Program-made: the position numbers and the translations under genes
Part shown: positions 11,728 to 59,938 of the stretch, in pieces
Layout of the letters: each line of letters begins with the position of its first letter
Position numbering within the stretch: position 1 is the stretch's first letter
From: an uncultured virus (IMG/VR IMGVR_UViG_3300030388_001635)
Lineage: Duplodnaviria; Heunggongvirae; Uroviricota; Caudoviricetes; Crassvirales
Strand: one strand, 5' to 3'
Virus record (IMG/VR): IMGVR_UViG_3300030388_001635
DNA length: 64,000 nt
The notes under the pieces: generated by a model
Database searches by the model: none
What the model saw: only the letters and a program-made list of their open reading frames with translations
Told to the model about the DNA's origin: nothing

Positions 11728-11953
11728 GAATAGAACAAGTCATTCCTTCAAGGACCATTTGATATCCTGCTCTTTTATCGTAATAAATTATATCATCTTT
11801 TTTAATAGAACTAACCTCAGTACCGGGAGTTATAACTTTAGCCTTTGCATATCTAAATTGTTCCGCATCATGTTCTGATAATAAAAGTCCTGATGAGGTT
11901 TTCATTTCTTCTTTAATATCCTCTGCTATTATGTATTTATTAATTGCTATCAT
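11696..11953 (-). CDS. groES: Co-chaperonin GroES (Cpn10)
   Basis: KTSSGLLL mobile loop, AKVITPG, IKKDDIIYY and ILKENDVVVV; overlaps the end of groEL. Confidence 0.85.
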   Translation of the reverse strand: MIAINKYIIAEDIKEEMKTSSGLLLSEHDAEQFRYAKAKVITPGTEVSSIKKDDIIYYDKRAGYQMVLEGMTCSILKENDVVVVV

Positions 11954-13568
11954 TAGACTCGTATGTTCTTGCCATTGTTATAATAGCGTTAGTAGATAAA
12001 ATAGTAACTGCAACGGATACCGCATTTTGTAATGCGTTCTTTGTAACCTTCATAGGGTCTATAATCCCCATGTCAATCATATCACCGTATGTCTCATTCT
12101 TTACATCGTAACCAACTCCATCCGCTTTTGATTCTTGATAGTGTTGTGAGATTGTACTCCCTGCATTCTCTAAAATTTGTGAGAGAGGCGAATACAATGA
12201 GTTGTATAAAATTGCGTCAGCAATTTTTTTTGAAGGACTTACCGGAGTATTGTATATTGGTTTAAAGTTTTGTACTATATCATATAGAGCAACTCCACCT
12301 CCCGGTAGTATTCCTTCTAACATAGCTGAACGAACTGCGCAAACAGCATCATCAACTCTATCAAACAATTCTTTTTGTTCAATATCTGTTTGTCCTCCTA
12401 CATATATAACGCCTATCCCTCCGCTTAAAGAAGCGATACGAGATAATATAAATTCTTTATCTGATTTATTAGTTGCAATTTCATGTGCATCCCATAGCTG
12501 AGTAACCCTCTCGCTTACATCAACGCCATCTTTAGAAGACTTAATAAGTATACTAGATTCTTTTCCTATAATACATTTATCTGCATGACCTAAATCATCA
12601 AATGAAATTAAGGATAAATCGTCACCTGTTTTTTCTGAAAAGTATTTTGCTCCAACCGACACAGCTATGTCTTGCATAAGCTCATGTTGTTTGTATCCAA
12701 ACTGTGGAGGTCCTATAACACAAATCTGTAAACCATTCTTCACAACATTAGCAGCTAAAGTGTTTACTACGTTAACCGACATAGGAGCAATGATTAATAA
12801 TTTTTTTTGTTCGTTGATTATTGGTTTTAGAATATTTTCAATTGCTAAGACATTAGATATCTCAGAATCACTTACTAATACCTCAACATTGTCAAGTATA
12901 CACTCGTCTTTCTTTTGGTTATTAATAAACAAAGGAGATGTCCATCCTCTTTCTATCTTAACACCATTTGTTGTTTCGCTGTATGTTTTACTAGACTCAG
13001 ATTTTTCTACAGTAACGATACCGTTCTTACCTACTTCTTTATATGTATCCGCAATAACCTTACCTATAACCTTGTCATTGTTTGCAGAAATAATAGCTAC
13101 GTCAAGTAATCTTTTATTGGTAATTTTTTTAGAAGCTTTTTTTAATTTACTTATTACTATCTCAGTTTCGCTAACAACTTCTTTAAGAACCTCTGCTCTG
13201 TTTGTAGTATCATCCATTAGCGTATCGCCTTGCTTAACTAATGCTTCTGTTAATACTATTGCTGTTGTTGTACCGTCTCCTGCTGAGGTAGCTGTGTTGT
13301 CCGCAGCTTGCTTCATCATGCGTACTGCAAGATTTTCTACAGGGTCAACTAAATCTACAGCTTTAGCTACGGTTACACCGTCCTTAGTAACTGTAAGTCC
13401 ACCCGTAACATATGCAGATTCTATTAGTACTGTATTACCTCTCGGTCCTAATGTACTTTTAACTGCGTTAGCGATTTTTGTAATTCCGGAGATTAATTTA
13501 TTTCTCCCCGTTTCCCCAAAAGATAAGTCCTTCGGATTGAAGCCTGATGGCATTTGCATTTGATTCAT
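11940..13568 (-). CDS. groEL: Group I chaperonin GroEL (phage-encoded)
   Basis: VKSTLGPRG, VTKDGVTVA, AGDGTTTA, EGILPGGG and GIIDPMKVT; no C-terminal GGM tail. Confidence 0.97.
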   Translation of the reverse strand: MNQMQMPSGFNPKDLSFGETGRNKLISGITKIANAVKSTLGPRGNTVLIESAYVTGGLTVTKDGVTVAKAVDLVDPVENLAVRMMKQAADNTATSAGDGTTTAIVLTEALVKQGDTLMDDTTNRAEVLKEVVSETEIVISKLKKASKKITNKRLLDVAIISANNDKVIGKVIADTYKEVGKNGIVTVEKSESSKTYSETTNGVKIERGWTSPLFINNQKKDECILDNVEVLVSDSEISNVLAIENILKPIINEQKKLLIIAPMSVNVVNTLAANVVKNGLQICVIGPPQFGYKQHELMQDIAVSVGAKYFSEKTGDDLSLISFDDLGHADKCIIGKESSILIKSSKDGVDVSERVTQLWDAHEIATNKSDKEFILSRIASLSGGIGVIYVGGQTDIEQKELFDRVDDAVCAVRSAMLEGILPGGGVALYDIVQNFKPIYNTPVSPSKKIADAILYNSLYSPLSQILENAGSTISQHYQESKADGVGYDVKNETYGDMIDMGIIDPMKVTKNALQNAVSVAVTILSTNAIITMARTYESNDSN

Positions 13569-14592: not shown

Positions 14593-15540
14593 ATGAGAAA
14601 ATTTACAAAAATCAATCCTTATCAGAAGATTAATCAGATAGTCATAGACGGGCTACAGAAATCAGGTTTACAATGGTTCAAAGCATGGACAAATGCTAAA
14701 GGTGATATAGAACATCCAATCAATAGAAATAGCAAGCGAGCATACTCAGGTGTTAATGTATTCTTTTTAAATGCATCATGTGTGCAGGCAGGTTATAAAT
14801 CTAATGAATGGTTAACTTATGTCGGAGCTAAGAAATTAGGAGGTTCAGTAAGAAGAGGAGAGAAATCAACTTGTGTAGTTAGACAGCTGATATCCTTTAA
14901 GATAGATGGGAAATGGTACTTAGAAGCACAAATTCCCGCAGGCAGAACAAAGAAAGATGCTACTCAACTAGCATTTAATATAGCGACAAACAATGTCTTC
15001 AATGTAGACCAAATTGATGGAGTTGAAGCATGCAGAGAAATCATAGAAGGAGCTACAGAAGACAACTTAGATGTTAAACCAATTGATACATGTGAGAAGA
15101 TAATTTCTGACTATGTGTTATCATCTAATGTAAAAATTAGAGAGGTAAATTCAAATGAAGCATTCTACTCACCTAATAGAGACATGATACAAATGCCGAC
15201 AAAAAAACAATTTGCTGAGAAGACATCAGTTGATGATTATTACAAGACATTGTTTCATGAGATGCTACATTCAACAGGACATGAGTCTAGACTAAACAGA
15301 TTCAAAAACGATGGTAATCAAGAGGATAAGGTTTCTTATTCAAAAGAAGAGCTTGTTGCTGAGATTGGAGCTATGTATCTTGTATCGATTGCTAAGATAA
15401 ATCCACAAGACAATGAGAGAAATTCACAAGCCTATATCAACGGATGGATTAAACACATCAAGACAAGCCATGAGAAATCACTTGTATCAGCAATGACCCA
15501 AGCTCAGAAAGGTGTTAAACTTATCTTGACAAATAGTTAA
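14593..15540 (+). CDS. ardC: ArdC-like antirestriction/ssDNA-binding protein with zincin-like domain
   Basis: PINRNSKRAYSGVN, WLTY..AKKLGGSVRRGEKS, VFNVDQ, AFYSP..D.IQMP, HEMLHSTGHESRLNR and YSKEELVAEIGA. Confidence 0.92.
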   Translation: MRKFTKINPYQKINQIVIDGLQKSGLQWFKAWTNAKGDIEHPINRNSKRAYSGVNVFFLNASCVQAGYKSNEWLTYVGAKKLGGSVRRGEKSTCVVRQLISFKIDGKWYLEAQIPAGRTKKDATQLAFNIATNNVFNVDQIDGVEACREIIEGATEDNLDVKPIDTCEKIISDYVLSSNVKIREVNSNEAFYSPNRDMIQMPTKKQFAEKTSVDDYYKTLFHEMLHSTGHESRLNRFKNDGNQEDKVSYSKEELVAEIGAMYLVSIAKINPQDNERNSQAYINGWIKHIKTSHEKSLVSAMTQAQKGVKLILTNS

Positions 15541-15589
15541 CTGACGATTCCTGAAGGATGAAACGTCTCCTGTCGGAGACGTATTAACT
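15535..15589 (+). ncRNA. Type I hammerhead ribozyme HH1 (predicted cleavage after GUA, 15583)
   Basis: Stem I AGTTAA/TTAACT; core CTGACGA; stem II TCC-TGAA-GGA; GAAA; stem III CGTCTCC-TGTC-GGAGACG; then TA. Confidence 0.92.
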
Positions 15590-15615
15590 TAATAAAAATT
15601 AAAACACAAAACATT

Positions 15616-15957
15616 ATGAAAACTTTACAAGATTTATTTACAATTCAAGGAATAGCAACTAAGGAGTCAATGGAAGGAAGAGCATTAAGAACTAGCGAAA
15701 CAGCTAGTTACTCAGGGAACACATGGTTCTTTACTTTCTCAGGTCATGTCAATTCAATGAGCTGTGATTATTATCCTCTTGGATGGAAAAAACAGGAAGA
15801 CGATAGAGGAAAGCCAACTGCTTCTAACTCAAATGCGATAGTATATTCTATGGATGTTTATCTTACTGATGCAGGCATTCAATTGATGTATTGGTTCATC
15901 TATAAGCATTTAACTCCATCAGGACAGGGAGATGCAATTGTAGGACCAACTAGTTAA
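15616..15957 (+). CDS. Early hypothetical protein (113 aa), bounded by HH1 and HH2
   Basis: ORF track; its stop TAA lies within HH2 stem I. Confidence 0.8.
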   Translation: MKTLQDLFTIQGIATKESMEGRALRTSETASYSGNTWFFTFSGHVNSMSCDYYPLGWKKQEDDRGKPTASNSNAIVYSMDVYLTDAGIQLMYWFIYKHLTPSGQGDAIVGPTS

Positions 15958-16006
15958 CTGACGATTCGGTAACGATGAAACGTCTCCTGACGGAGACGTA
16001 TTAACT
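15952..16006 (+). ncRNA. Type I hammerhead ribozyme HH2 (predicted cleavage after 16000)
   Basis: AGTTAA CTGACGA T-TCG-GTAA-CGA-T GAAA CGTCTCC-TGAC-GGAGACG TA TTAACT; compensatory C-G to G-C change in stem II. Confidence 0.92.
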
Positions 16007-16023
16007 TAATTAAAAATAATATT

Positions 16024-16389
16024 ATGAATTCACATACAATGAAAGACCTAAAAAATAACGATGCAAAACCAATCATGGTACTAAATGTTTTAACTGAAGA
16101 GTACCAAGTATTTATGAATGGTTATGACCTAGAAACCAATCTTGTCTCAGCTATCATTTTTGCAACAGGAGACAGCAAGAAAATTTTAGATGATGACTAC
16201 AGAAATAAGATTAAAAAAGAAGCAAGGATAGAATACATGGTTACTAAGCTTGGAGCAAAGAAAGTTTACTCTCCTGAATTCGACATGATATCTTACTATC
16301 AAGTACAACATGAATTCTTCAAAGATGAGTCTATCAAAAAGCTACAACAACTTTCAAGCACAGCTACACATGATTATCTAAATAGTTAA
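16024..16389 (+). CDS. Early hypothetical protein (121 aa), bounded by HH2 and HH3
   Basis: ORF track; its stop TAA lies within HH3 stem I. Confidence 0.8.
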   Translation: MNSHTMKDLKNNDAKPIMVLNVLTEEYQVFMNGYDLETNLVSAIIFATGDSKKILDDDYRNKIKKEARIEYMVTKLGAKKVYSPEFDMISYYQVQHEFFKDESIKKLQQLSSTATHDYLNS

Positions 16390-16438
16390 CTGACGATTCC
16401 ACAAGGATGAAACGTCTCCTGTCGGAGACGTATTAACT
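16384..16438 (+). ncRNA. Type I hammerhead ribozyme HH3 (predicted cleavage after 16432)
   Basis: AGTTAA CTGACGA T-TCC-ACAA-GGA-T GAAA CGTCTCC-TGTC-GGAGACG TA TTAACT. Confidence 0.92.
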
Positions 16439-16458
16439 TAAAATTAAAATAACACATT

Positions 16459-16713
16459 ATGAAAAAAAGTAAAATTTATTTAGAAGCAACAGCAAGTTTT
16501 GTTGCAACAGCTTTTGTCAGCATTCTTGCAGTCAAAGTTATGTTCCATGTCTTTATTGATATAGACGGAATTGGAGATTGGATGCTATGGATATTCATGC
16601 TAGGTTTTAATCTATTCTTGATAGTCATTGTAGCTAATCTATTTTATGTTCATTACAATGAAGAGCTTACATCATTAAGGCGTAGAGATAATGATACAAC
16701 AACAAATTTATAA
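16459..16713 (+). CDS. Early membrane protein (2 TM helices)
   Basis: Two long hydrophobic segments; AAAATAACACATTATG start context. Confidence 0.75.
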   Translation: MKKSKIYLEATASFVATAFVSILAVKVMFHVFIDIDGIGDWMLWIFMLGFNLFLIVIVANLFYVHYNEELTSLRRRDNDTTTNL

Positions 16714-16715
16714 AC

Positions 16716-17135
16716 ATGGAAAAGAAAATAACAAAATTCGGAAAAGACTATTGGTCAGAAACAGGAGCTTACAGTAAAGAAGCTAAGGCATTAATAGATG
16801 ACCTAGTACCAAATATGGGAAGGGCTAAAACCAATCATGGTGAGCTACTGAGATGTATCACTAATCTTATCTATGAGCATGGAAACAATGGCAATGGTAA
16901 TACCTTTGGTCAATGGGACAAGCTTGAGAGTCATTGGGAAAAACAACTTGAGTACTTGATTCAAAACATGGATGATACCATCTCTGCGAAAGGATTAAAA
17001 GCTTTTGTTTCATCACTTAACAGAGACGAACATCTTAAGAAGTATAATCATAGATACTCTATGGTTATGGATAGTATAATGCATCAAATAATCACAACAG
17101 AAGACAGGCAAGTTACATTGTTCGATAGTGAATAG
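16716..17135 (+). CDS. Early hypothetical protein (139 aa)
   Basis: ORF track; LVP..G...T.HGELLR....L.YE..NNGNGN motif. Confidence 0.8.
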   Translation: MEKKITKFGKDYWSETGAYSKEAKALIDDLVPNMGRAKTNHGELLRCITNLIYEHGNNGNGNTFGQWDKLESHWEKQLEYLIQNMDDTISAKGLKAFVSSLNRDEHLKKYNHRYSMVMDSIMHQIITTEDRQVTLFDSE

Positions 17136-17154
17136 TGTATGACAGGACCAATTC

Positions 17155-17185
17155 TTGTCTAATTCAAATATTATTATTATATTTG
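17155..17185 (+). promoter_or_regulatory. Bacteroidota sigma-A promoter (TTG-N20-TATATTTG)
   Basis: TTG at 17155-17157 and TATATTTG at 17178-17185. Confidence 0.75.
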
Positions 17186-17198
17186 TAATATCAATAAG

Positions 17199-17225
17199 GA
17201 TTCCTGAGCATGAATCAAACTGCTC
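17199..17225 (+). ncRNA. Compact H-type pseudoknot
   Basis: GATTC (17199-203) pairs with GAATC (17212-216); loop GAGCA (17206-210) pairs with TGCTC (17221-225). Confidence 0.6.
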
Positions 17226-17277
17226 GCTGTAACAGAATATATTGTTCTGTCTGACGATTCCAAAAGGATGAAACAGC
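17226..17277 (+). ncRNA. Type III hammerhead ribozyme HH4 (predicted cleavage after GUA, 17231)
   Basis: GCTGT-A, stem I hairpin ACAGAATA-TAT-TGTTCTGT, CTGACGA, T-TCC-AAAA-GGA-T, GAA-ACAGC; stem III GCTGT/ACAGC is the open stem. Confidence 0.9.
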
Positions 17278-17294
17278 AAATTAAAAATAACATT

Positions 17295-17696
17295 ATGAAC
17301 ACACATGAATCAACTTTAAAAAAAACAAACCTGTGGGTAATCTTAGATGAAGAGAAGCTTTCGATAGTTAAGGGGAATGGACAGGCAATGAAGTTTAAAA
17401 CTGAGGAAGAGGCAGATAGATTCGCTAGCTCACACCTCCACCTTTGGATAGTAGTTAACATTAATTTCTTAGACAAATGGTGGAAGCATGAAGCAAGCCA
17501 TGACAAAGAGGGAAGATTATATGGACCATCAAAATATGATTTACCGATAGAGTTGGATGACCCTGAATTTACACCTCCATCTATTGAAGATACTTTAGAG
17601 TTAGTAGAAGAACAAGAGATGGAAGTTGGAAACGTAAAAGAATGGATAAGTGACGATGAGAGAGCTAAACGTAATCCTAATAAATTTAAAAAATAA
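17295..17696 (+). CDS. Early hypothetical protein (start revised to MNTHES...)
   Basis: The track start at 17268 lies inside HH4; the ATG at 17295 has the AAAAATAACATTATG context shared by its neighbours. Confidence 0.7.
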   Translation: MNTHESTLKKTNLWVILDEEKLSIVKGNGQAMKFKTEEEADRFASSHLHLWIVVNINFLDKWWKHEASHDKEGRLYGPSKYDLPIELDDPEFTPPSIEDTLELVEEQEMEVGNVKEWISDDERAKRNPNKFKK

Positions 17697-17706
17697 AACT
17701 TAATAA

Positions 17707-18222
17707 ATGAAAACAGAACAAATATATATAATTAATTATGTTGATAATTATGGTAATTCAGAGATAATGGGAGCTACTAATAATCCAAAAAAATGGATTA
17801 AAAAACGTAATGAAATCAGAGAGGATGAATATAAAGAAAAATTATCTGATTTTAAAATTACTAGGATTACGTTTAGTCCATTTAATTTTGATGAACTTCA
17901 TGCATTTGGATTACTAGGTACTCATAAAAAAGATAATGCATTTAAAGAATTATTTAAATTGTATGAATCTGTATCGGATGGAGCTGAAAAGTTAGAAGGC
18001 GAAAACGCCATGTTAACTAACCGAGTTGAGATGTATGAATTAAAGGTCGCTAAACTTAGACGTACAATAAGTACTACGATGAATAGCATAGAGATACCTA
18101 AGTGCTATGCAGAGGAAGGAGATGATACGTTTTATGACTATGAATTAATGCAAGAGCTATTTGACCAAGCAATGTGCGAGCTGAAAAACAAAGTCGCTAG
18201 ACTAACTAAAACAATTAAATAA
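17707..18222 (+). CDS. Hypothetical protein (171 aa)
   Basis: ORF track; tightly packed operon. Confidence 0.7.
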   Translation: MKTEQIYIINYVDNYGNSEIMGATNNPKKWIKKRNEIREDEYKEKLSDFKITRITFSPFNFDELHAFGLLGTHKKDNAFKELFKLYESVSDGAEKLEGENAMLTNRVEMYELKVAKLRRTISTTMNSIEIPKCYAEEGDDTFYDYELMQELFDQAMCELKNKVARLTKTIK

Positions 18223-18820: not shown

Positions 18821-19093
18821 ATGGTAAAAGTAAAAATTAGTTTAAGACAAGTGTATTTCAAAACAACATCAGTTGAGATTGATATACCAAAAGACATCAC
18901 AACTTGGTACAGCGACATAGGTACTTATCTTAATGAAAATCCTGAGCTTTATGCAGACAAGGTTATGAAGAATTTAAAAGAGGAAGATTATGAAGAAGGC
19001 ATCGGTATGGAAACGGGAGCTTGGACAGATTCAGACATGGATGCAGAATGGCGTTTTGATTGCAAAGAACTAAAAACAGGAGGTCATGTCTAA
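18821..19093 (+). CDS. Hypothetical protein (90 aa)
   Basis: ORF track. Confidence 0.7.
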   Translation: MVKVKISLRQVYFKTTSVEIDIPKDITTWYSDIGTYLNENPELYADKVMKNLKEEDYEEGIGMETGAWTDSDMDAEWRFDCKELKTGGHV

Positions 19094-22843: not shown

Positions 22844-22866
22844 CTTGTTGATTTTAAGGTTGAATT

Positions 22867-22890
22867 AAGGAGGATTTATCCTCCTTTTTT
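22867..22890 (+). terminator. Intrinsic terminator
   Basis: AAGGAGGA-TTTA-TCCTCCTT followed by a T-run. Confidence 0.85.
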
Positions 22891-22990
22891 CTGCTTTTTT
22901 CTGTGTTGAAATGCTAAAAATTTAGCTTTCTATAGAGCTATAAGATATATATATTAATTTATATTATTTTTTTTACTCTTATATGAATAT

Positions 22991-29716: not shown

Positions 29717-32700
29717 TTATTTATTTCTTAACTTTTTCTTCAAATCATTTTTCGTTTTATTCACTTCTCTTTTTTTCCTATTTAATTCTTTTACTTTTTC
29801 TAACAAAACAGGATTGTTTAATGTTTCAATCATCCACATAGGAGGTAAAGAACTCTTTTTGGTTCTTCCGCCACCGGGACGTTGAGTTTTAGGAACGTTT
29901 AGAATGTCGTACAAATTTTTATCAATCTCACCTTCTCCTGTTAACATTCTTGCTGTTCCTTCTACAGGGTCAAATTGGAATCCCATTCTTAATTCTAGGA
30001 AAGGACGTATAGCTGCAATGTAATCTTCTTCATTTAAACCTTTAACAGACTCTTTTACTATTCTTAATAAAGGTTCTACAGCTCCTGATTCAGAATAACC
30101 TGAATTTCCTTTTTCACCCATCATATAATTTATACCTGATTCAGCTGCTGCTCCTAATATTGGAACTCTAGTAAGCTGAGTAAATCCTGTCATTTGTCTT
30201 TTAATAGTTTTAATAGCTTCTAATTTCTCATCCTCATCACCCTTAGTAAGCATTAACATGTTAGCAGTAGCTTGGAATGCCATGTTTGCTACAGCTCCTG
30301 ATATTATAAACCCTCTGATATCTGTTTTAGATGGCATCTTACCGTTTCTAATGCTACGCATAATGTTTCTCATATTAACAGCTGTGTTATTCATCTGTAA
30401 AAACATTGTACTACCAAACATTGTAAGCAATCTTAACAGACCTGCTCTTCTTTGTAGACCACCTTTATCCATATCTCTACGAGATTGCTGAGTAAGATTG
30501 TATTCTACAAATTCTAATGCAGCCTCTGTCTCTGTCATTCCATTTGCAATGTCTTGATTATAATTAGCCATGTAACCCATAACACCCATAACATCTCCAA
30601 TAGATGTTCCTGCTCCAATAAAAGATTTAACATAACCTTTTAATTCTGCTGTAGTATATGTTTTTCCGGCAATTGTAATTGTACCATCCGGATTTAAAAA
30701 TTTACCTACAGCTGCTCCTAATCCTTTTCCTGATTTATTTCCTGTCTCTAGTTCTACAAGGTTTTTACCTGACAAAGCCTCTAGCATTCTTTGTTCAAAT
30801 CCTGCCGATATTTTTTTAGCTGTTTTAATTCCACCTTCCATTCCTGCAAGTGTTAAAGCTAACGTTTGAGTATAACGACCAAGAAACATAATTGCATCAA
30901 CAGCTGTCGCAGGTATACCTAAAGTAGCCTTATCAACTGCTTGATAAGTTAAATTTCCTTTGTATCTAAACTTTTTAAACGCTTCAATAAACGAAGATGC
31001 TTGTTTAGGAATTTGCCATACTTTTAAACCTAAAACATAACTAACAAACGCACCTTGAATTGTGTTAACTAACTTAGAGTCTAACGAATTTGTTTCAAAA
31101 TTATCTCTCCCGTTAATTGCAAAATTTAACATTTCATTATTTAATGATGTTAATCCCGATTCTTTTAACAAAAGTTTTACAGATGGTATTTTTAATATTC
31201 TATTTAATTCAGGGACTAAATCTGCATAAGCTTTATATCTTTCTGTAGATTCTATGTGTGAGTCTAGCATATCAGTAAAAGATGTAGCAGGATTTATTAT
31301 AGAATTTCTGCTTCTCATTTTTAATGAGCTTGGAGACTCTGCAGTAAATGTACTAAACACATCAGATTGAAATCCTATAGATTTCTCTTCAGATGTTGGG
31401 TCTAGCTTAGTAGATAAAGGAAAATAGTTTTCTATCTTATCTAAATTTACGTCATTGTTTCTTACATAGACTTCATTAATAGAATCATAACTGTCATTAG
31501 TTAAATAGTCTACTACTATATCTGCAAAACCTATCACATCATTACCTAAATGTTCTTCTATAGCTTTAAATTTTTCCTCTGTAAATCCTTGCTGTATTAG
31601 TCTAGCACGAACTTCAGGATTTTTAGCTATAGCATATATATAAACCAATTGGTCATTAGTAGGATTGTTAAATGTTCCATCAGGATTGTTTTCCGTAACA
31701 TCAATACCTGAAAGAATCATTGGATTCTTTTTAAGTAATGCAAGTTTAAAGTTTTGATAAGCCTTGTTTACATCTAGATTACCCTTGTTTTTAAAACCTG
31801 CTCTTTCGGCAAGTTTATTTACATATCTGTTAACGTCTCTAACACCTTCTTCTCTTTTAAAGTTAGCTTTACTTAAAGGTTTCTGAAAGTATTTAGTAAA
31901 GAATTCGTTTTTTCTACCATCTAATATGTTAAATAAAGTTTGAGTATTAGAAATAATACTATCGAAATATCTAGAAAGCATTACACCCAAATTATTTGTT
32001 CCGCTTTCAGTTTTAATAAAAGGACTAAAAATACCATCTGCAAAATCCTTCATAAACTTTAAAAAACCTTTATCTATAAACTGTTGTATATTAGATTTTC
32101 TACTATCTTCTACTTCTCTATCAGTTTTTAAACCTTTTTCTCCATACAAAAATGGATAATTTGTTTCTATAGATTCGTCTGCTTCAGCTTTTATTTTTGC
32201 AGCTCTCTCTTTTCTCTTCAATCTTCTTTTTAATAGTTCTTGCCTAGACTGTTTAGCTTCTTGTTTTATTCCTTTAAATATATCATTAAGTTCTTCTATG
32301 GATTTCGTTTCTAAATTATCATAACGAGCATAGATTTCTGCTTCAGCCAAAAGTATAGAATCAGCTTTGTTTAAAGACTTGCCTTCTTTTAAATTAGCTT
32401 CTCTAGTTAGAGCTTCTTCTATCTCTACTTCAAGAGCTGCCAACTCTACTTTTTTCTGTATGAAAGCTTCTCTGCTTAAATTTAAAGCTTTATTTAAAAC
32501 TTTAAAATACTCTTGACCTCTATACTCTAAACTACCTGATTTAGGTTTTTTATTACTACGTTTAATCTTTGTTTTTTTCTTAACGTAATCTTTAATAGTT
32601 TGTAAAAAAGTTTGTTTGTCTTTTACTTTTATCTCATTAACTATTTCTTGAACCCTCAATACCTCAGCAACAAAATTCACATCATCAACTTCAGCAATAG

Positions 32701-35700
32701 TTTTTAATATACTTTTTAGTTCTGTTTTATTTACTTTGCTAACAGTTGTTAAAGCTTTTCTAATATAATTTGACAATCTTTTTCTTATATCTTTTGAAAC
32801 TTTTGTTGAGTCTTTACGACCTTTTAACTCAGCTAATATAACATCTATTTCTTGTTGAACAGCTTGATTTGCCTTAGTGCCTAACATAGCATCATACTCA
32901 GCTATCATTTGTTTTTGATTTACAAGAGGTTGTTCTTTAAACAACTTGTTGTCTTCTAAATCTTTTTTTCTAGCTGCTCTTTCTTCTTTTCTATATTTTA
33001 AAGCCTCCGCTTTAAGCTTTTCATTTTTAAACGTTTTACCACCATCTTCGGAAACTAATACTTTTCTATTGGCTTCAGGAAGTGTTTTTAATCTTTTTAA
33101 TCTTAACTCTTCTACTTGATTAAAAATCTGCTCACCCACATTAATACCACCTTTAGCATTTGTAAAAGCTGTTGGTATAGCTGTTTCCATTAATGCTAAA
33201 ATTTGTTCCTCATTTAATTTTAGTCTTTTTCTTAATACAGCCGCAACAACATCATCAGGCATAGCCATTTCTCTACCTCTAATAACCATTTGTTCGGCTG
33301 TTAATCCTTGCTTAAATGCTGCTTCAGGATTTTTTAATTGCTTTTGTTGTATGTTAGATAATTCTATTTCTTTGCCGCTAAAAATATCAGCCAATGCACT
33401 TCCAATAAACTCATCTAAAGTTATATCTTGAATTTCTGCCTCACTATAATCTTTAGACATTTTAAACTCATCCATGATTAACTTCCACATCCCTAACAAC
33501 CATTCTTTAAATTTAGCTTGTAATGATGCGTTAGCAATAGTTTCGCCTTTGTTTCCAATTAAAATAGCCATAGCTTCATCTACAGCTTTCTTCTGATTTC
33601 CATCAAACTTTTTTAATTGGTCTTTATATGTTTTAGTTTTCTTAACCAAAACAGAACCTCTTTCATATAATAATTTACCTTTCTTTGTTGTTTGTATATA
33701 GTCAGTCCAAACATGTCCCATCTCATGAATAGAAGTGTTAAACAGTTCACTTTCACTATTGTGAACATCAGGGTTTATATATATATCTCCATTTACTGTA
33801 ACACCGTATACGGTTTGATTTCCTTTTGAGTATTGCATAACACCCTCAGAATTCATTACAATTTTAAATGTTTCTGAATCAGTATAAATTGTTGTTCCGG
33901 GAAAAGATATATTTAAAAAGTTGTTTAACTTATTTATATTACTTTGAGAACCTGCTTTAGCTCCAATATAATCTTTAGATGGTATACCAATTCCTAATCC
34001 TGTTTGATTAGTTCTTAATTGTTTACCTGTAACTTTTTTACCTTGTGATTCTTTTTCAACTAAACTACCCATTGCTTTTTTATATGCTATAGGATAAGCT
34101 TTCTCCATAGACACAGGGTTTGTAAGGACACCCATAGATTTTCCTCTTACACCATATTTATAATTTGGATGTGTTGTTTCTACTACTCCCGGATTTAAAA
34201 CATCTACACCAACTATAGCAACGATACTTCCTTCAGGAACATCTTTCATTTGTTTGTCAGTAATTATTTCAGCAATACTTGCAATGTTAAGTAACTCTCT
34301 AGCACTTTCATCTTGGTTTTCTAGCAATGCTGTAGTAACAGATGAAAGTTCAGAAACAGCACCTGCTTTTTTAGTTTGTCCGGGTTTATTAGGTGTTCCG
34401 TATCCTATAATATTCATAAGATTAACTCTAGCTCCAAGTCCTAATTTTTTTACAAATTTAGGAGCAACTACATCATCTATAGATTGAATATCTTTTCCTT
34501 CTAACAATGAAATTATATCATTAAAAGGTTTCTTTTTATTCGCTTTATCTCTTCGGCTTATAATTTCTGTCTTCAAAGCTTCCAAAGCCTTTACTTTGTT
34601 TTCTTCAGGTATCTTTGTTAAATTATCAGCTAACACTCTAAACATAGCTTCATTAGAAATAATTCCGCTTTCAGCCATCTTAACAACATTAACAGGAACT
34701 AATCCATTGTACTCAGGATTGTTAGCCCAAAACTCATCTATTTTTGGTTTGTTAGCTTGATAAATAAATTCAGCATTTTGCAACATATTTTCTGCTTTGG
34801 CTTTTGTCGTTCCTGCCCAAGCTGCTTGTTCATTTCCTGTAGTACCATTAAAACCTATTGACCCTTTTAAATTATCAATAGTTGTACCTGTGTTTGGATT
34901 AACCACATTACCTGTAGTAAGTTGGTCAGATATTGTAAACGCTGCAGGTATACCATCAATAAGTTCTATAGAAGTTACTTGTAAGTCTGTATCTGTTCTA
35001 TTGTTTAACTCTTGTACATCTAACTTAACATTACTTTCTTCAGTCTCAATTTTAGTATTTACATTGTCGCTTTCTAAAAGATTTATTCTTTGTGTAATCG
35101 CCTCTATCTCATCTCTATCAGGTTCAACTTTGTTTTCATCTTTTAATCTAAAATCAACTTTATCATCCAAACCTTCTTCCATTTCTTTTACTTGTTGGTC
35201 GAAAATCTCTTTACTTTCAGCACTAACTTCTTCTGTAGTTGATTCTGTAGACTTCTTTTCTGTTATTGTTTCAGATGTCTTTTCTGTCAAATAAAGTCCT
35301 TGTGACATCATCAGCTCTTGATTCATTAGGGCTTGGCTAGACTTAAATATTTTACCTCCTACAACCGTAGAGTCTTCTATAATTTCAGTTACTGTAAAAG
35401 AAGTGCCTTGTTTATTCATTATAACATCACCAACTTTTATATCATCAATATTCTTTTTTGATACAAACTTACCTTTTTTAAAAATTTCAGTTTTAAAACT
35501 ATTATCATCTACAACTGTAACCTTACTACCTTTTTTCTTTCTATCTTTTTTTAATTTTGCTAAATATTCTTTCTCTTGAGAAGCTAATTCTTCTGTAGTT
35601 ACTTCTTCTGTAGTTGATTCAGTAGACTCAAGCATAGCATCATATTTTGCGTTGATTTTGTCTATTTCTGTCTCAACAAATACAAAAGGTCTTCTTCTGC

Positions 35701-38700
35701 TCTCTCCGTATCTTTTATTTAACGCATCAACTTTTTGTTGATGGCTTTTATCTGTTTTACCTAAAGCTACTAAGAATTTTTGTGCTTTTCCTTTTTCAGT
35801 TTGAGTCATGAATGTATCTGACAAAATTTGCTCTCTTAAACTTATAAAGATTGGGTCACTAACTTTTCCGTCAGTTTCATCAGTTGTAAAGTAATCATCT
35901 ATTTCAGCTTTTCTATCTGCTTCTATTTGCGTTTCACTTTGTTGGGTAACTTTTTTAGGTCCACCGGGTACTCCTTCTGCCACTTCTTCAGGAGTTTTGG
36001 TTTGAACTTCGCTAGGTATCTTAATTGAGCTTTGCTTTTGATTGGCATAATCTTCAAGTTTAAATGATTCTTGTTCTATTCCTAACATTTTCTTTACAAC
36101 GTAATCGTTTAGCGCAGTTGCTAAAGCATCGTTGTCCTTAATTGTAAATGCAGGATTGCTTTTTATTAATTTTTCTTTTGACATTTTGTCAACTGCTTTC
36201 AGAAAATCTTCAGGAGTTTCATAAGTGCTTGTTCCAATTTTAAATTGATTAAAAGACTTTACATCAAACTTACTTTCGTTTAATGGGTCTAATTTTATAT
36301 TATCAACCTTTGTTCCTGTTGGTCCTTGAATACCTTCTATAGTTTTTGTATTTTCATCAAACTTATCAGATAGCTTACCTGTTAAAATTAGTTCACTAAG
36401 CTCTGCATTAATACTTTTAATATTACTTTTAAATACCTCACGCCTATTTATAGTTGAACCAAGATTATTTTGAGCTTCTATTAACCTCATAGCTCTAGCA
36501 ACAACTGCAGGGTCAGCATTTTCTCCTAACAAATCTGTAGCAGATTTTAAAATACCTAAATTATCTGTTATAGCTTTTCCTTTAGATGCATCTATTTTCC
36601 CTAATTTAACGTTTTTATTTACAAAATTTAATATTTGTTCAGGAGTTGCATCTGTATAAGTTGCTAAAAAAGCAGGGTCTGTAAAGTCAGCTAATAATTT
36701 ATTTCTTCTTTTATTACTATTAAGTAATGTCATATTAATAACAGCATTACTTCCTTGATTTCCAAATGCACCACCCATTTCTGCAGCAATTTCTTTAAAG
36801 TCAAGTTCATTTCTTCCTGTTCCAAATAAGATTTCGTTTTCTTGTGCAAGTGTCTCACCTACACCTTCACCTATTGGGTCAAGAACTAATCTCTCAGCTG
36901 TTATTAAACCTGCTGTTTTTAACACACCTTTTGATGTTATTGCAAATTTTGCAGGCATAAATAATCTACCTGCTAAACCTGCAGTAAAATAATCAATTAT
37001 AGCAATTGGTATTCCTCTTGCATGACCTCTTGCTCCACCTACATCCCAAACTTTTTGGTCTTGTAAAGCTAAAGCTACTTCGTCAGGATTATATATATCA
37101 TAACCCGTTTCAGTAATAGCCTCAAGAATAGAATTGGTATATTCCATTGCGTATGTTGTAGCAGCAAAACCAACCCTTAAACCATAACCTAAACCTACTT
37201 TAGCACCTATTGCTATAGTTAGAGGATTAGCACCCAAAGCTCCGTAACCCGCACCTGTTCCTGCGCCAATAACTCCTGACATAGGAATTAATTGAGCTCC
37301 ATATGGTAACATCATTGCAATACTTTTACTTGCTAATTGAGTACTCCATTCAAGAGGGTCACTAGCAACAACATCCCAAGATTCTCTAAAGCCTTGTGAA
37401 TCCTCCCAATTGAGCATAGTTTTACTTTGATTGCCTGTTTTGTTATTCATTGCATCAACAATATGTAATGCTATATCCATAACATCATCATCATCACCAC
37501 CCCCAATTAAATCAACACCCATAGCGTATTGTAATATAGAATTAGCAGCATGACCTTGTTGTAAACCATTTGCAAACTCTTCCGTAAAACCCTCAAAATT
37601 ATCTACAAAATCGTTTTGAATTTTTTTATTCTCCATGCGATTTAAATACAGCTGTGAGTTTTCATAAATCATCGCTGCATTTTTTCTTTCAAAATTTAAA
37701 TTTAAAGTTTGAGTTTGTAATTGTTGCATTTCAACAAATTCTTGTCTTGTTGTGTTCTCATTTATGGCTTTAGCTAAATTCATTGGTTTTTCACCATACC
37801 TTATTAAAGCTTGTTCATCTATTACACTTTGCTCTTTTTTAACTGTATCGTTAATAAATACTGCTTCCGATACTTTTGCTTGTTCTTTTTTTCTTAAGTA
37901 TAAATCAAATTCATTTCTTGTATCTTTTACTTTATTGTTAAAAGCAGTCCCAAATAATGCAGTTTCTTGTGTTTTTAATCTAGCTAACTCTTCTTGTATA
38001 TCATCTCTTAACTCTCCATTGACATATAAATCCCCATATTGTGCTTGTCTTTTTAAAGACAAATCTTTAATACGATTAACATCATCACCCATTGTTGAAT
38101 CTTTGAAATCACCAAACTCATCTCTCTGTAATTCTCCATCTAAAAGGTCTTCAATAAAATCAATCCTATCTCTAGTTTCTTGATAAATATTAAATGATTG
38201 TGAAATTTGTTGATAATCTAATCCTCTTTCTTTATAAAATTGTTGAGCCTCAACATCTATTGTGTTTACACCTTTCCATGAACCGTCTGCAAATGCATTA
38301 GCCTCTTCTTGGGTATCAAAAGTAAATACTTCATTTCTTTCTTTAGCTAAATCTAAAGCCTTCTTACCTTTTAACTCTATCCAATTATTTGCATAACTAG
38401 CTTGATTTTCATCGTCTACAGGAAATAAAGTAGGAGCAACTAAAAATTTACCGTCTTCTTCAAATGTTCCCATTAAATGAGAAGATACAGTACCATTTTT
38501 ATTGACACGTCTTCCACTTCTCATGTTTTGAGCTTTTAATGAATTACCAATAAAATCCATGTTTTTATCAGAATCAACTATTTCGCTAGAATTAAGCATT
38601 AAAAAGTTTTTTAAATCAGCTACTTCGTCATCAGCACCAACGCCAAACAAAGGGTCTATATCTATAGTAATTTCTGCATTACCGTCTGAAGTACGAGCCA

Positions 38701-59122: not shown

Positions 59123-59378
59123 AACCTTGATTGGTGTTAGTTTTAGTTAGACCTTTACTCTCAATATTTATAACTTCTTGTTCTTGTTCTATTCTAGCTA
59201 ATATTTCAAACGCATCAAATATAGCAAGTTTTTTTGTTGCAGCTGCATTTTTTAATCTATCAGCTGACACATCATCTTCAGTTCCTGTAACAATTTTTTC
59301 TTTTGCAACATTAATTAATTCTTCTACAGCTTTTTTTGCTGCATCGATAATTTTTAATTTTACTTCGTTGCTATTCAT
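59100..59378 (-). CDS. Putative terminase small subunit
   Basis: Small helical protein overlapping the terL start; ends GFAERRSK. Confidence 0.55.
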   Translation of the reverse strand: MNSNEVKLKIIDAAKKAVEELINVAKEKIVTGTEDDVSADRLKNAAATKKLAIFDAFEILARIEQEQEVINIESKGLTKTNTNQGFAERRSK

Positions 59379-59938
59379 AATTTAACTGTTATGAATTGTG
59401 ACATAATACGATACATTAAAACTCCATCAACAGTAAATTCATATTCACTTTCGGGTTTAAAAACAACTTCATCTCCGGCTTTTATTCCATGATAAATTAA
59501 TTCTTTATTTGGATATCTAACAACACCAACTAATGGTTCGTATTTAACTATCTTATCTATATAATATTCTTTACTCAATATAGGTTCTACAAAACAATAT
59601 TTATCATGAGCATGCCATTCATTATTAGTCTTGTATAAAAAAAATTGGTCGTTTTCTATAAAAAATAAATTGTCTTTAAAATAACTTTTACCACTTTTTT
59701 CAACGCCTTTCATGTCATAATATATTTTAAAAACATTATGATGAACTAAAAGAGTATCTCCTATTTTTATAGGACCACAATAATTTAAAGGTAAATGTTT
59801 TACAACAGCATAACGGTTTGAAAATTTGTGGTCTTCCTGTGAAGTACTTACAATTAGTTCTACATCGCCATGTGTTCTTGTGTTATCGTATCGTTTTCCT
59901 TTTAAAGGTTCTACGATAAAGCTGAAAGGTGATTGCAT
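59375..59938 (-). CDS. Tandem GroES-like domain protein (187 aa)
   Basis: Two halves, each with FxVEP...(A/G)VV...IKxGDx; the second ends EFTVDGVLMYRIM...I, as GroES does. Confidence 0.6.
   Translation of the reverse strand: MQSPFSFIVEPLKGKRYDNTRTHGDVELIVSTSQEDHKFSNRYAVVKHLPLNYCGPIKIGDTLLVHHNVFKIYYDMKGVEKSGKSYFKDNLFFIENDQFFLYKTNNEWHAHDKYCFVEPILSKEYYIDKIVKYEPLVGVVRYPNKELIYHGIKAGDEVVFKPESEYEFTVDGVLMYRIMSQFITVKL

What the first reader, a model, noticed from the sequence alone, without database searches (positions are those of the whole stretch)
17226..17277. Fourth hammerhead is a circular permutation (type III) of the same core
Seen: the same CUGACGA-UUCC-NNAA-GGAU-GAAAC core, but stem I is a closed hairpin (ACAGAAUA-UAU-UGUUCUGU) and stem III (GCUGU/ACAGC) is open, with GUA at 17229-17231. 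The stems are unrelated in sequence to HH1-3 yet still pair. Inference: two topologies with one core in a single operon argue for function. Here most of the ribozyme would stay as a structured 5'-OH cap on the downstream mRNA (ATG 17295), whereas HH1-3 stay on the upstream 3' ends.
Basis: partly seen in the sequence, partly recalled or inferred. Interest (0 to 1): 0.75.

Follow-up and report, generated by a model that had tools for sequence, protein, structure and literature searches.

The report
Type III hammerhead ribozyme in phage operon
This is a genuine-looking self-cutting hammerhead RNA in front of a phage early gene, one of a large family in uncultured aquatic phages, and its layout (several hammerheads of mixed topology between phage genes) has been known since 2011.

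Summary
17226-17277 (+) has every hammerhead core residue, a closed stem I, a closed stem II, an open 5-bp stem III and a GUA cut site (cut after A17231). Its 24-nt core plus stem II occurs four times in the window and 0 times in shuffles.

It belongs to a large type III family. A model built from 85 relatives, excluding the window, scores it 67.9 bits. That family shows 90.9% pairing, with changes on both sides in 15 of 16 pairs. A syntenic relative keeps 55 of 56 bases where the flanks are 61-77% identical.

- In that relative, the type I neighbours carry a canonical stem II, so the shared core is lineage-specific.
- Mixed type I and III neighbourhoods are common: 30 of 109 related loci.

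The U10.1-U11.1 mismatch and mixed-type clusters in prophages were described by Perreault et al. 2011.

Most likely role: co-transcriptional cutting of the early message of a Flavobacteriia-type phage. This would leave the ribozyme body and a 17-nt leader on the downstream gene. Cleavage itself is untested here.

Verdict: a new member of a known kind, of modest interest.

The parts
17226..17277 (+). HH4: type III hammerhead ribozyme. Open 5-bp stem III, GUA cut site, closed stem I, CUGACGA core, U10.1-U11.1 with a 3-bp stem II and AAAA loop, then GAAA.
   Evidence: Sequence; fold; Rfam Hammerhead_3 30.1 bits in a 141-nt search; independent family model R2 67.9 bits, E = 1.6e-16.
17231..17232 (+). 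Predicted self-cleavage site, between A17231 (left with a 2',3'-cyclic phosphate) and A17232 (left with a 5'-OH).
   Evidence: Position of H17 in the hammerhead consensus. The end chemistry follows from established hammerhead chemistry and was not tested here.
17206..17225 (+). Small hairpin abutting stem III (GAGCA / 10-nt loop / UGCUC). It would become the 3'-terminal structure of the upstream fragment, or it may stack on stem III.
   Evidence: Fold of 17190-17300. In L068 the base pair G17206-C17225 is replaced by A-U. Family-wide, the 36 nt upstream of type III copies fold to a mean of -11.2 kcal/mol against -4.4 and -4.5 in the controls (77 sequences).
17155..17185 (+). Candidate promoter (TTG, 20 nt, TAnnTTTG). 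It also gives a weak sigma-70-like match, TTGTCT-17-TATATT.
   Evidence: Motif scan (13 on the + strand against 4.3 in shuffles, so weakly specific); sigma-70 scan 9 of 12; the block is conserved in L068 next to a 12-nt deletion. The Bacteroidota consensus is recalled, not taken from a call.
17278..17294 (+). 17-nt A/U-rich leader between the ribozyme and the start codon, with no Shine-Dalgarno sequence.
   Evidence: Sequence. ACAUUAUG is shared by the starts at 15616, 16459 and 17295; the start at 16024 has AUAUUAUG.
17295..17696 (+). Downstream gene, 133 aa, no family match. Its true start is ATG 17295, not the ATG at 17268 inside the ribozyme core.
   Evidence: ORF list; no Pfam or PHROG hit. 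In L068 the 17295 ATG is conserved and the core ATG is out of frame.
15535..15589 (+). HH1: type I hammerhead with the same core. Stem I AGUUAA/UUAACU contains the stop codon of the ArdC gene. Cut after A15583.
   Evidence: weak RAGATH-1 hammerhead match of 19 bits.
15952..16006 (+). HH2: type I hammerhead. Stem II carries a compensating C-G to G-C swap. Cut after A16000.
   Evidence: The orthologue in L068 has the same stem I but a different stem II and stem III.
16384..16438 (+). HH3: type I hammerhead. Cut after A16432.
14593..15540 (+). ArdC-like anti-restriction gene, the first long gene of the + strand early block. It ends inside stem I of HH1.
   Evidence: Pfam ArdcN 7.8e-21 and MPTase-PolyVal 3.3e-29; phrog_7245 anti-restriction protein 1.6e-63.

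Best explanation
17226-17277 encodes an active type III hammerhead ribozyme of the U10.1-U11.1 stem II variant. As the + strand early transcript of this tailed phage is made, the RNA folds into the three-way junction. Loop II (AAAA) docks on the closed loop of stem I, and the chain cuts itself after A17231.

The upstream piece would end in a small hairpin plus GCUGUA with a 2',3'-cyclic phosphate. The downstream piece would begin with a 5'-OH, the folded ribozyme body (46 nt) and a 17-nt unstructured A/U-rich leader before ATG 17295.

Together with the three type I copies at 15.5-16.4 kb, this cuts the message into single-gene or two-gene pieces whose ends are set by the ribozymes. At this site it also uncouples the downstream gene from whatever lies upstream.

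Shown here: the motif, its family membership, covariation, and conservation above the flanks.
Inferred: cleavage itself, the loop-loop contact, and any effect on mRNA stability or translation.
For: 1. All core residues are present, and the fold is the minimum-energy structure in both 56-nt and 111-nt contexts.

2. Family membership. An exact-pattern scan of viral contigs gave 32 loci. Of 118 core matches in these loci, 95 classify as type III, 14 as type I and 9 as neither. Eight of the 14 type I matches are outside the window's own contig.

3. Covariation.
- Alignment A1 (the window plus 23 relatives): 91.9% of cells paired against 35-44% when partners are slid. Ten of 16 pairs change on both sides, including all 6 pairs of stem I.
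- Alignment A2 (85 relatives, no window): 90.9% paired against 27-50% when slid. Fifteen of 16 pairs change on both sides, and 0 of 500 shuffles reach any of the five measures.

4. Model R2, built from A2, scores the window copy 67.9 bits (E = 1.6e-16) with filters off. The next non-hammerhead hit scores 13.3 bits.

5. The syntenic relatives L068 and L106 keep 55 of 56 nt of 17224-17279. Identity elsewhere is 64% in the upstream gene, 61% in the upstream spacer and 77% in the downstream gene. The single change (C17225 to U) adds a pair.

6. Tertiary-contact features. Loop I starts with U in 83 of 85 relatives. Loop II is AAAA, GAAA or UAAA in 68 of 85. This matches the class in which a stem II tetraloop docks on a closed stem I loop through a conserved A-U Hoogsteen pair (Chi et al. 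2008, PMC2553840, passages read).

7. No + strand intrinsic terminator lies between 13.5 and 19.5 kb, which fits long transcripts.

8. Literature. Clusters of type I, II and III hammerheads flank genes in prophages, and three such arrangements cleaved in vitro. The U10.1-U11.1 mismatch is a natural variant reported to support more cleavage than other mispairs (Perreault et al. 2011, PMC3088659, passages and section 8 read).
Against: - No cleavage data exist for this RNA or for any member of its subfamily in my calls.
- The U10.1-U11.1 mispair and a 3-bp stem II weaken the usual closing pair. Stem III has only 5 bp here, against 7 in L068.
- Loop I (UAUAUUG, 7 nt) departs from the family's UGUGUA or UGUGUG. 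Seventy-one of 85 relatives have 6-nt loops and only 2 have 7-nt loops.
- Rfam's Hammerhead_3 score is below gathering (30.1 against 48.5), and the hit was lost by the filters in larger searches. However, 12 related loci that also hold canonical-core hammerheads gave no gathering-level hit either, so this is weak evidence.
- The relatives were collected with an exact core and stem II pattern. Positions 10.1-10.3 and 11.1-11.3 could therefore not vary in A1.
- The viral and metagenome collections share contigs, so loci are not independent phages.
- The effect on mRNA fate is inference. A 5'-OH end can protect or destabilise an RNA depending on the host's RNases (recalled knowledge).
Confidence: 0.8

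Rival explanations
1. Promoter-proximal leader trimmer. HH4 acts mainly on transcripts that start at a promoter at 17155-17185. It removes about 40 nt of 5'-triphosphate leader, so the gene always has the same ribozyme-defined 5' end whatever the promoter or read-through. This would be a natural counterpart of engineered ribozyme insulators. It is a refinement of the best explanation, not exclusive with it.
For: - The 88-nt spacer holds TTG-N20-TATATTTG and a 9 of 12 sigma-70-like match at 17155-17183/17185. The block is conserved in L068 next to a 12-nt deletion.
- Terminase relatives all come from Flavobacteriia phages: 86 of 87 records are named for such hosts and 1 is uncultured. A Bacteroidota-type promoter is therefore plausible.
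- In the cultured Flavobacterium phage vB_FspP_elemoB_14-3B, a family member (R2 41.4 bits) sits in a divergent intergenic region. It lies 16 nt before the first gene of a long operon, with no same-strand gene upstream.
- Perreault et al. 2011 report a halovirus hammerhead 13 nt before the first ORF of an early transcript. The mapped 5' end of that transcript lies within 3 nt of the cut site.
Against: - The promoter motif is only weakly specific: 13 on the + strand against 4.3 expected. Sigma-70-like sites are not enriched: 32 against 28.3.
- Most family members sit only about 30 nt after the upstream gene's stop codon, behind a strong hairpin. That leaves little room for a promoter.
- The promoter consensus is recalled, not tested.
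Confidence: 0.3
2. Conditional ribozyme. The weakened stem II (U-U) and short stem III make cleavage slow or dependent on Mg2+, temperature, a protein or translation state. Cutting would then be regulated during infection rather than constitutive.
For: - Perreault et al. [quoted passage not shown]
- U-U and canonical G-C stem II versions coexist on one stem I framework in the same contigs (L111, L068).
Against: - The U-U form is the majority in this family: 60 of 85 in A2 and 110 of 128 type III copies. It looks like a normal working form rather than a special switch. These counts are biased by how the loci were collected.
- No ligand-like or protein-site extra domain is present.
- The minimum-energy fold is already the active secondary structure.
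Confidence: 0.15
3. Inactive relic or purely structural element. This would be a hammerhead-shaped remnant kept as a hairpin cluster, a protein-binding site or a transcription pause, with no cleavage.
For: No cleavage data; sub-threshold Rfam score; atypical loop I.
Against: - Every catalytic residue is intact.
- 55 of 56 nt are conserved against 61-77% identity in the flanks.
- Family-wide covariation keeps exactly the hammerhead helices.
Confidence: 0.05
4. End-joining role. HH3 (cut after 16432) and HH4 (cut after 17231) release a two-gene RNA with a 5'-OH and a cyclic-phosphate end. That RNA would then be circularised or ligated.
For: The two ends produced are the substrates of RtcB-type ligases (recalled). 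Perreault et al. 2011 raise spliced or circular products as a possibility.
Against: - Perreault et al. 2011 state that they were unable to detect either spliced or circular products.
- Stems of HH3 and HH4 are unrelated, so nothing brings the ends together.
- No joints were seen in the few laid contigs, but cover there was too thin to count.
Confidence: 0.03

Closest known systems
Clustered hammerhead ribozymes flanking genes in prophages and phages (Perreault et al. 2011, PMC3088659)
   Same: Several hammerheads of different topologies (I, II, III) lie in one orientation between single genes or short gene blocks of phage DNA. An anti-restriction gene is among the flanked genes (ardA there, an ArdC-like gene here). 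The proposed role is processing of long phage transcripts. The U10.1-U11.1 stem II variant is already noted there.
   Different: Theirs were found mostly in bacterial prophages. Their search rejected 10.1-11.1 mispairs by default, with exceptions that were tested. This copy is in an uncultured lytic-type Flavobacteriia-like phage and belongs to a subfamily in which U-U is the majority form. I could not find this core in their supplementary text, but the alignments were not searchable as plain strings.
Type III hammerheads of the satellite tobacco ringspot virus class (Chi et al. 2008, PMC2553840), and the engineered insulators derived from them (recalled)
   Same: Type III topology. A 6-bp stem I is closed by a loop that starts with U. 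A short stem II is capped by a tetraloop ending in A. This is the arrangement in which a stem II tetraloop docks on a closed stem I loop through an A-U Hoogsteen pair. The ribozyme body stays on the 5' end of the downstream RNA.
   Different: Those ribozymes process rolling-circle RNA replicons, not DNA-phage mRNAs. They have a G10.1-C11.1 pair. The resemblance in loop sequence to that satellite ribozyme is recalled, not tested here.
HHphage of haloviruses HF1 and HF2 (Perreault et al. 2011, discussion)
   Same: A hammerhead lies a few nucleotides (13 there, 17 here) before the start codon of an early gene. The mapped 5' end of that transcript is within 3 nt of the cut site.
   Different: HHphage is a structurally unusual variant tied to high salt and an archaeal virus. 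HH4 has an ordinary three-helix layout.
Unannotated hammerheads of the cultured Flavobacterium phage vB_FspP_elemoB_14-3B (MT497068.1)
   Same: Terminase 45.6% identical to the window's. One type III copy (R2 41.4 bits) lies 16 nt before the first gene of the early operon, and one type I copy lies further in, on the same strand. Stem I also has 6 bp, its loop also starts with U, and the leader is also A/U-rich.
   Different: Canonical G10.1-C11.1 stem II with a 5-nt loop, and a CUGAAGA core. The record carries no ribozyme annotation.

Membership tests
Hammerhead ribozyme class, type III topology | Conserved core: C3 U4 G5 A6 N7 G8 A9, G12 A13 A14, A15.1-U16.1, and H17 not G | tested here: met
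   CUGACGA 17251-17257, GAAA 17270-17273, U17230-A17273, H17 = A17231.
Hammerhead ribozyme class, type III topology | Three helices around the core, with stems I and II closed by loops and stem III open | tested here: met
   Minimum-energy fold and descriptor scan (stem I 8 pairs, stem III 5 pairs).
Hammerhead ribozyme class, type III topology | Helices supported by compensating changes in relatives | tested here: met
   A1: 10 of 16 pairs change on both sides, 91.9% paired. A2: 15 of 16 pairs, 90.9% paired against 27-50% when slid.
Hammerhead ribozyme class, type III topology | Watson-Crick pair at 10.1-11.1 closing stem II (usual, but not obligatory: the U-U mismatch is reported as a natural variant by Perreault et al. 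2011, section 8) | tested here: not met
   U17258 lies opposite U17269. The same holds in 60 of 85 relatives. The source paper treats this as a tolerated variation, not as an exclusion.
Hammerhead ribozyme class, type III topology | Loop I and loop II elements for the tertiary contact (stem II tetraloop with A; closed stem I loop with U) | tested here: inconclusive
   Loop II is AAAA and loop I is UAUAUUG, starting with U. The family has U first in 83 of 85. The contact class is described by Chi et al. 2008.
Hammerhead ribozyme class, type III topology | Site-specific self-cleavage giving 2',3'-cyclic phosphate and 5'-OH ends | not testable with these tools
   RNA runs held only sparse assembled contigs.
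Rfam RF00008 Hammerhead_3 (operational membership) | Score at or above the gathering threshold of 48.5 bits | tested here: not met
   30.1 bits over the full model, E = 4.8e-5, in a 141-nt search; not reported in larger searches. Twelve related loci holding canonical-core copies also gave 0 gathering-level hits. I therefore do not file it under the Rfam threshold, only under the ribozyme class.
Aquatic-phage type III hammerhead subfamily (defined here by model R2) | High score to a covariance model built without the window | tested here: met
   67.9 bits, E = 1.6e-16, model positions 1-64 of 64. Family members score 25-87 bits with R1.
Clustered phage and prophage hammerheads (Perreault et al. 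2011) | Two or more hammerheads in one orientation, in intergenic positions, flanking single genes or short blocks of phage genes | tested here: met
   Four copies on the + strand between the ORFs ending or starting at 15540/15616, 15957/16024, 16389/16459 and 17135/17295. Phage context: terminase, portal, primase.

The most novel reading that the evidence does not exclude
In Flavobacteriia-type phages the two topologies may be position-specific parts of one system for defining transcript ends.
- Type I copies are fused to the stop codon of the gene they follow, and stay on that gene's 3' end.
- 'Hairpin + type III ribozyme + short A/U leader' cassettes sit at the head of a gene or transcription unit. 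They act as natural 5'-UTR insulators, giving Shine-Dalgarno-less mRNAs a fixed, structured 5'-OH end.

The cultured phage vB_FspP_elemoB_14-3B, with its host, carries both kinds. It would let the long-open question of what phage hammerheads are for be tested directly.
Probability: 0.25. Interest if true: 0.55.

Novelty: new member of a known kind. Interest (0 to 1): 0.3.

Why it matters
The biological purpose of hammerheads encoded in bacterial and phage DNA is still described as unsettled. The 2019 review PMC6765202 says processing of polycistronic transcripts has only been 'suggested'.

This copy adds no new principle. It does show three things:
- A large, covarying type III subfamily exists, with a U-U stem II, usually preceded by a strong hairpin and followed by a short leader.
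- Rfam thresholds miss it entirely.
- A cultured Flavobacterium phage carries related type III and type I copies in its early operon, which gives a tractable system for testing function.

It also warns annotators that the ATG inside the ribozyme core (17268) is a false gene start.

Tried and rejected
- **Rfam at gathering score** on the window and on 12 related loci: 0 hits each. At E <= 10 on 15 kb, only chance-level hits to other families.
- **blastn (distant mode)** of 15400-17400 against GenBank phages: no match.
- **The window's own assembly is not held**. The nearest virus record, G001, has no match to the loosened core pattern. It is only 57% complete, so this says little.
- **Viral-contig scan for HH1-3's own stem III**: 0 hits.
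- **Genome-contig scan with the core pattern**: 15 loci. The other 13 look like coding-sequence coincidences. No host could be inferred this way.
- **RNA evidence**: 8 runs were listed and 5 hold small shares (0.06-0.10) of the stretch's sampled words. Laying 4 of them gave 11 short contig pieces. None bridges or clearly ends at a predicted cut site. One relative's contig stops at 17251 and two stop at 15962/15963, which are inside the ribozymes and not at the cut sites. These are assembled contigs, which cannot show RNA ends. No conclusion was drawn.
- **Supplements of Perreault et al. 2011**: the core string was not found in the text held, but the alignments appear not to be stored as plain strings. 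I cannot say whether this subfamily is in their dataset.
- **N4-like hairpin-promoter idea** for the upstream motif: the 3310-aa ORF has no PHROG match at 1e-5, so I dropped it.
- **Literature search** for hammerheads in marine phage genomics papers: the 15 papers listed out of 1,237 hold no occurrence of 'hammerhead ribozyme'.
- **Earlier notes of this scan**: none for this genome or sequence.

Full report
**1. What is there.**
On the + strand, 17226-17277 reads GCUGUA / ACAGAA-UAUAUUG-UUCUGU / CUGACGA / U-UCC-AAAA-GGA-U / GAAA-CAGC. This is a complete hammerhead in type III order:
- the 5' strand of stem III (17226-17230), whose last base U17230 pairs with A17273 (the A15.1-U16.1 pair);
- the cleavage nucleotide A17231;
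- a closed stem I, then the CUGANGA box, a closed stem II, GAAA, and the 3' strand of stem III.

The 24-nt core plus stem II occurs four times on the + strand (15541, 15958, 16390, 17251). It occurs 0 times in 100 shuffles. The looser pattern gives 4 matches against a mean of 0.17. My own descriptor scan of both strands finds exactly four hammerheads in the 64 kb: three type I (cuts after 15583, 16000, 16432) and this type III. The minimum-energy fold of both the 56-nt and the 111-nt context is the three-way junction.

**2. Database models.**
Rfam gives nothing at gathering score and nothing for hammerheads at E <= 10 in a 15-kb search. In a 141-nt search, Hammerhead_3 aligns over its whole length at 30.1 bits, below the gathering score of 48.5. 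HH1 gets only a 19-bit match to the RAGATH-1 hammerhead.

This is a property of the thresholds, not of the RNA. Twelve related loci, several with canonical-core hammerheads, gave 0 gathering-level hits.

**3. Relatives.**
- An exact scan for the core (CTGACGATTC-N6-GATGAAAC) found 32 loci in viral contigs.
Eighty loci were fetched.
- Of the 118 matches in these loci, my classifier type III, 14 type I and 9 neither.
- Six of the type I calls and two of the type III calls are the window's own contig, fetched twice (L075 and L076, 100% identical).
- The two collections share contigs, so these are loci, not independent phages.
- In species-representative bacterial genomes the pattern gave 15 loci. 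By eye only 2, both in Paceibacterota MAG contigs, are hammerheads. The family is essentially one of uncultured viral DNA.

**4. Covariation.**
In A1 (the window plus 23 distinct viral relatives; I left out L023 as type I and L025 as a coding coincidence):
- 91.9% of cells pair, against 35-44% when partners are slid;
- 10 of 16 pairs change on both sides, including all 6 pairs of stem I;
- one row (L020, with a longer stem I) is misaligned and counts against the structure.

In A2 (85 matches of model R1 in 48 loci; the window and its near twins were not among the sources):
- 90.9% pair, against 27-50% when slid;
- 15 of 16 pairs change on both sides;
- none of 500 shuffles reaches any of the five measures.

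A2 was fitted to the model's structure, which favours it. The slid controls and the size of the effect make that a minor concern. Stems I and III lay outside the search pattern, so their covariation is free of collection bias.

**5. Independent membership test.**
Model R2, built from A2, scores 17218-17282 at 67.9 bits (E = 1.6e-16) with filters off. The three type I copies score 21-25 bits through the shared core, and the best unrelated hit scores 13.3 bits.

**6. Orthologous conservation.**
Contigs L068 and L106 are syntenic relatives at 71-78% nucleotide identity. Across 17224-17279 they match 55 of 56 bases. This compares with 87 of 136 in the upstream gene, 54 of 88 in the upstream spacer and 159 of 206 in the downstream gene. 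The one change, C17225 to U, can lengthen stem III to 7 bp. It also compensates G17206 to A in a small hairpin (17206-17225) that abuts the ribozyme.

The topology at each site is conserved. L068 has type I copies at the places of HH2 and HH3, and the type III copy at the place of HH4.

**7.
In L068 the two type I copies keep stem I (AGUUAA/UUAACU). They differ in the rest:
- a canonical stem II closed by G10.1-C11.1;
- a different stem III;
- a GUC cut site.

L111 mixes U-U and canonical stem II versions on the same stem I. So 'one core in two topologies' is a feature of this lineage, perhaps from exchange between copies, and is not the basis for function.

Mixed topologies are also not unusual. 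With a stricter descriptor that found 0 hits in reversed-sequence controls, 55 of 109 related loci hold two or more hammerheads, and 30 hold both type I and type III.

Perreault et al. 2011 (PMC3088659; passages and section 8 read) already describe clusters of type I, II and III hammerheads flanking genes in prophages. Three of those arrangements cleaved in vitro, one of them flanking the anti-restriction gene ardA. They also note the U10.1-U11.1 mismatch as a natural variant. Earlier notes of this scan report the same layout in many other genomes.

**8. Context.**
The window is a tailed phage:
- large terminase, portal and virion proteins on the minus strand;
- GroEL and GroES;
- exonuclease, primase and helicase on the + strand.

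All 87 records with a terminase match are phages of Flavobacteriia, apart from one uncultured record. The host is therefore probably a member of Flavobacteriia.

The four ribozymes lie at the head of the + strand early block. The order is: ArdC-like anti-restriction gene, HH1, a 113-aa gene, HH2, a 121-aa gene, HH3, 84-aa and 139-aa genes, an 88-nt spacer, HH4, then a 133-aa gene. None of the small proteins has a significant family match; one (16716-17135) has only a sub-threshold DUF6899 hit. No + strand terminator is predicted between 13.5 and 19.5 kb.

Hammerheads recur next to ArdC genes elsewhere:
- a type III copy directly before one in L024;
- a canonical type I copy directly after one in L035;
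- copies within the flanks in L034 and L040. That makes 3 of the 10 ArdC loci, scanned.

**9. Mechanism.**
Shown: the motif and its conservation. The following is inferred from established hammerhead chemistry.
- Self-cleavage after A17231 gives a 2',3'-cyclic phosphate on the upstream piece and a 5'-OH on the downstream piece.
- Because stem III is the open helix, the downstream RNA keeps stems I and II and the core (46 nt).
- A 17-nt A/U-rich leader then follows before ATG 17295. That ATG, not the one at 17268 inside the core, is the conserved start.
- In the type I copies the body stays on the upstream RNA, and the downstream gene gets a bare leader of about 25-32 nt.

The family's loops fit the contact class in which a stem II tetraloop docks on a closed stem I loop through an A-U Hoogsteen pair (Chi et al. 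2008, passages read). Loop I begins with U in 83 of 85, and loop II is NAAA in 68 of 85. The window's loop I is an atypical 7-nt UAUAUUG, but it is conserved in L068.

**10. A family-wide companion.**
The 36 nt just upstream of type III copies fold far better (mean -11.2 kcal/mol) than a control stretch 100 nt further up (-4.4) or shuffles (-4.5). This covers 77 distinct sequences (Wilcoxon p about 5e-10 and 1.5e-13). The usual unit is therefore 'strong hairpin + type III hammerhead + short leader'. After cutting, the hairpin would sit at the 3' end of the upstream RNA.

In the window the hairpin is weak: 5 bp with a 10-nt loop.

**11. Operon-internal or leader?**
The spacer before HH4 holds a conserved TTG-N20-TATATTTG stretch at 17155-17185. 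This is a Bacteroidota-type promoter shape (the consensus is recalled). The scan is only weakly specific, with 13 hits against 4.3 expected.

In the cultured Flavobacterium phage vB_FspP_elemoB_14-3B:
- a type III family member (41.4 bits) lies in a divergent intergenic region, 16 nt before the first gene of the early operon;
- a type I copy lies further inside the same operon;
- neither is annotated.

HH4 may therefore trim a promoter-proximal leader as well as cut read-through RNA. I rate this refinement at about 0.3.

**12. Verdict.**
This is a real, well-supported type III hammerhead and a new member of a known kind. The points of modest added value are:
- the size and coherence of the U-U type III subfamily;
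- its hairpin companion;
- its invisibility to Rfam thresholds;
- a cultured phage-host pair carrying related copies.

Direct evidence of cleavage could not be obtained. The RNA runs held only sparse assembled contigs.

Noticed in passing
window 15535-15540, 15952-15957, 16384-16389: The 5' strand of stem I of each type I hammerhead (AGUUAA) supplies the last serine codon and the UAA stop of the upstream gene. All three genes end in N-S or T-S followed by the stop. A ribosome reaching the stop codon would unwind stem I.
   Followed up: partly
L001-L130 (type III copies); window 17206-17225: Type III family members are usually preceded directly by a strong G+C-rich hairpin of about 10 bp. The mean fold energy of the upstream 36 nt is -11.2 kcal/mol, against about -4.4 in the controls (77 sequences). 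The window's own upstream hairpin is weak.
   Followed up: partly
window 17203-17225; L068, L106, L031, L083, L009: A conserved sequence block (CCUGAGCAUGA..AAACUGCU-like) sits just upstream of the type III hammerhead in several otherwise different contigs. It may be a protein site, a promoter part or a conserved-loop hairpin.
   Followed up: no
window 15609-15618, 16017-16026, 16452-16461, 17288-17297: The four genes after the ribozymes start in a near-identical context (A/U-rich, then AUUAUGAA). None has a Shine-Dalgarno sequence. This fits a Bacteroidota host.
   Followed up: no
window 17268-17270: The ATG formed by the core (GGAUGAAAC) is in frame with the downstream gene, and the ORF lister takes it as the start (17268..17696). 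In L068 it is out of frame, so automatic annotation would probably mis-start this gene.
   Followed up: yes
L068 361-420 and 757-820; L111; L092: Relatives carry type I hammerheads with the same stem I (AGUUAA/UUAACU) but interchangeable stem II (U-U or canonical G-C) and different stem III. This suggests modular exchange or repeated spread of a cassette within these genomes.
   Followed up: partly
L190 (MT497068.1 10000-26000): record about 19021-19086 and about 17264, minus strand: The cultured Flavobacterium phage vB_FspP_elemoB_14-3B has an unannotated type III hammerhead before the first gene of its early operon. It also has an unannotated type I hammerhead in the gap between CDS 17341-17796 and CDS 16936-17232.
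   Followed up: partly
L024, L034, L035, L040; window 14593-15589: Hammerheads recur next to ArdC-like anti-restriction genes in unrelated phage contigs. This echoes the ardA-flanking hammerheads of Agrobacterium in Perreault et al. 2011.
   Followed up: partly
window 29717-39649 (-): A 3310-aa ORF among the structural genes has no PHROG match at 1e-5.
   Followed up: no
window 11940-13568 (-) and 59375-59938 (-): The phage encodes its own GroEL (phrog_5725, 1.7e-127) and GroES (phrog_13932, 2.9e-23), as do the Elemovirus relatives.
   Followed up: no
window 22852-22920 (-): Weak match to the type-P3 twister ribozyme (20.2 bits, gathering score 39.9, E = 5.1 in 15 kb). It is most likely chance.
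   Followed up: no
window 15564-15589 with 15952-15981, and likewise HH2 with HH3: HH1-3 share identical stems I and nearly identical stems III. The 3' half of one copy and the 5' half of the next could therefore pair into an alternative hammerhead that loops out the whole gene between them.
   Followed up: no
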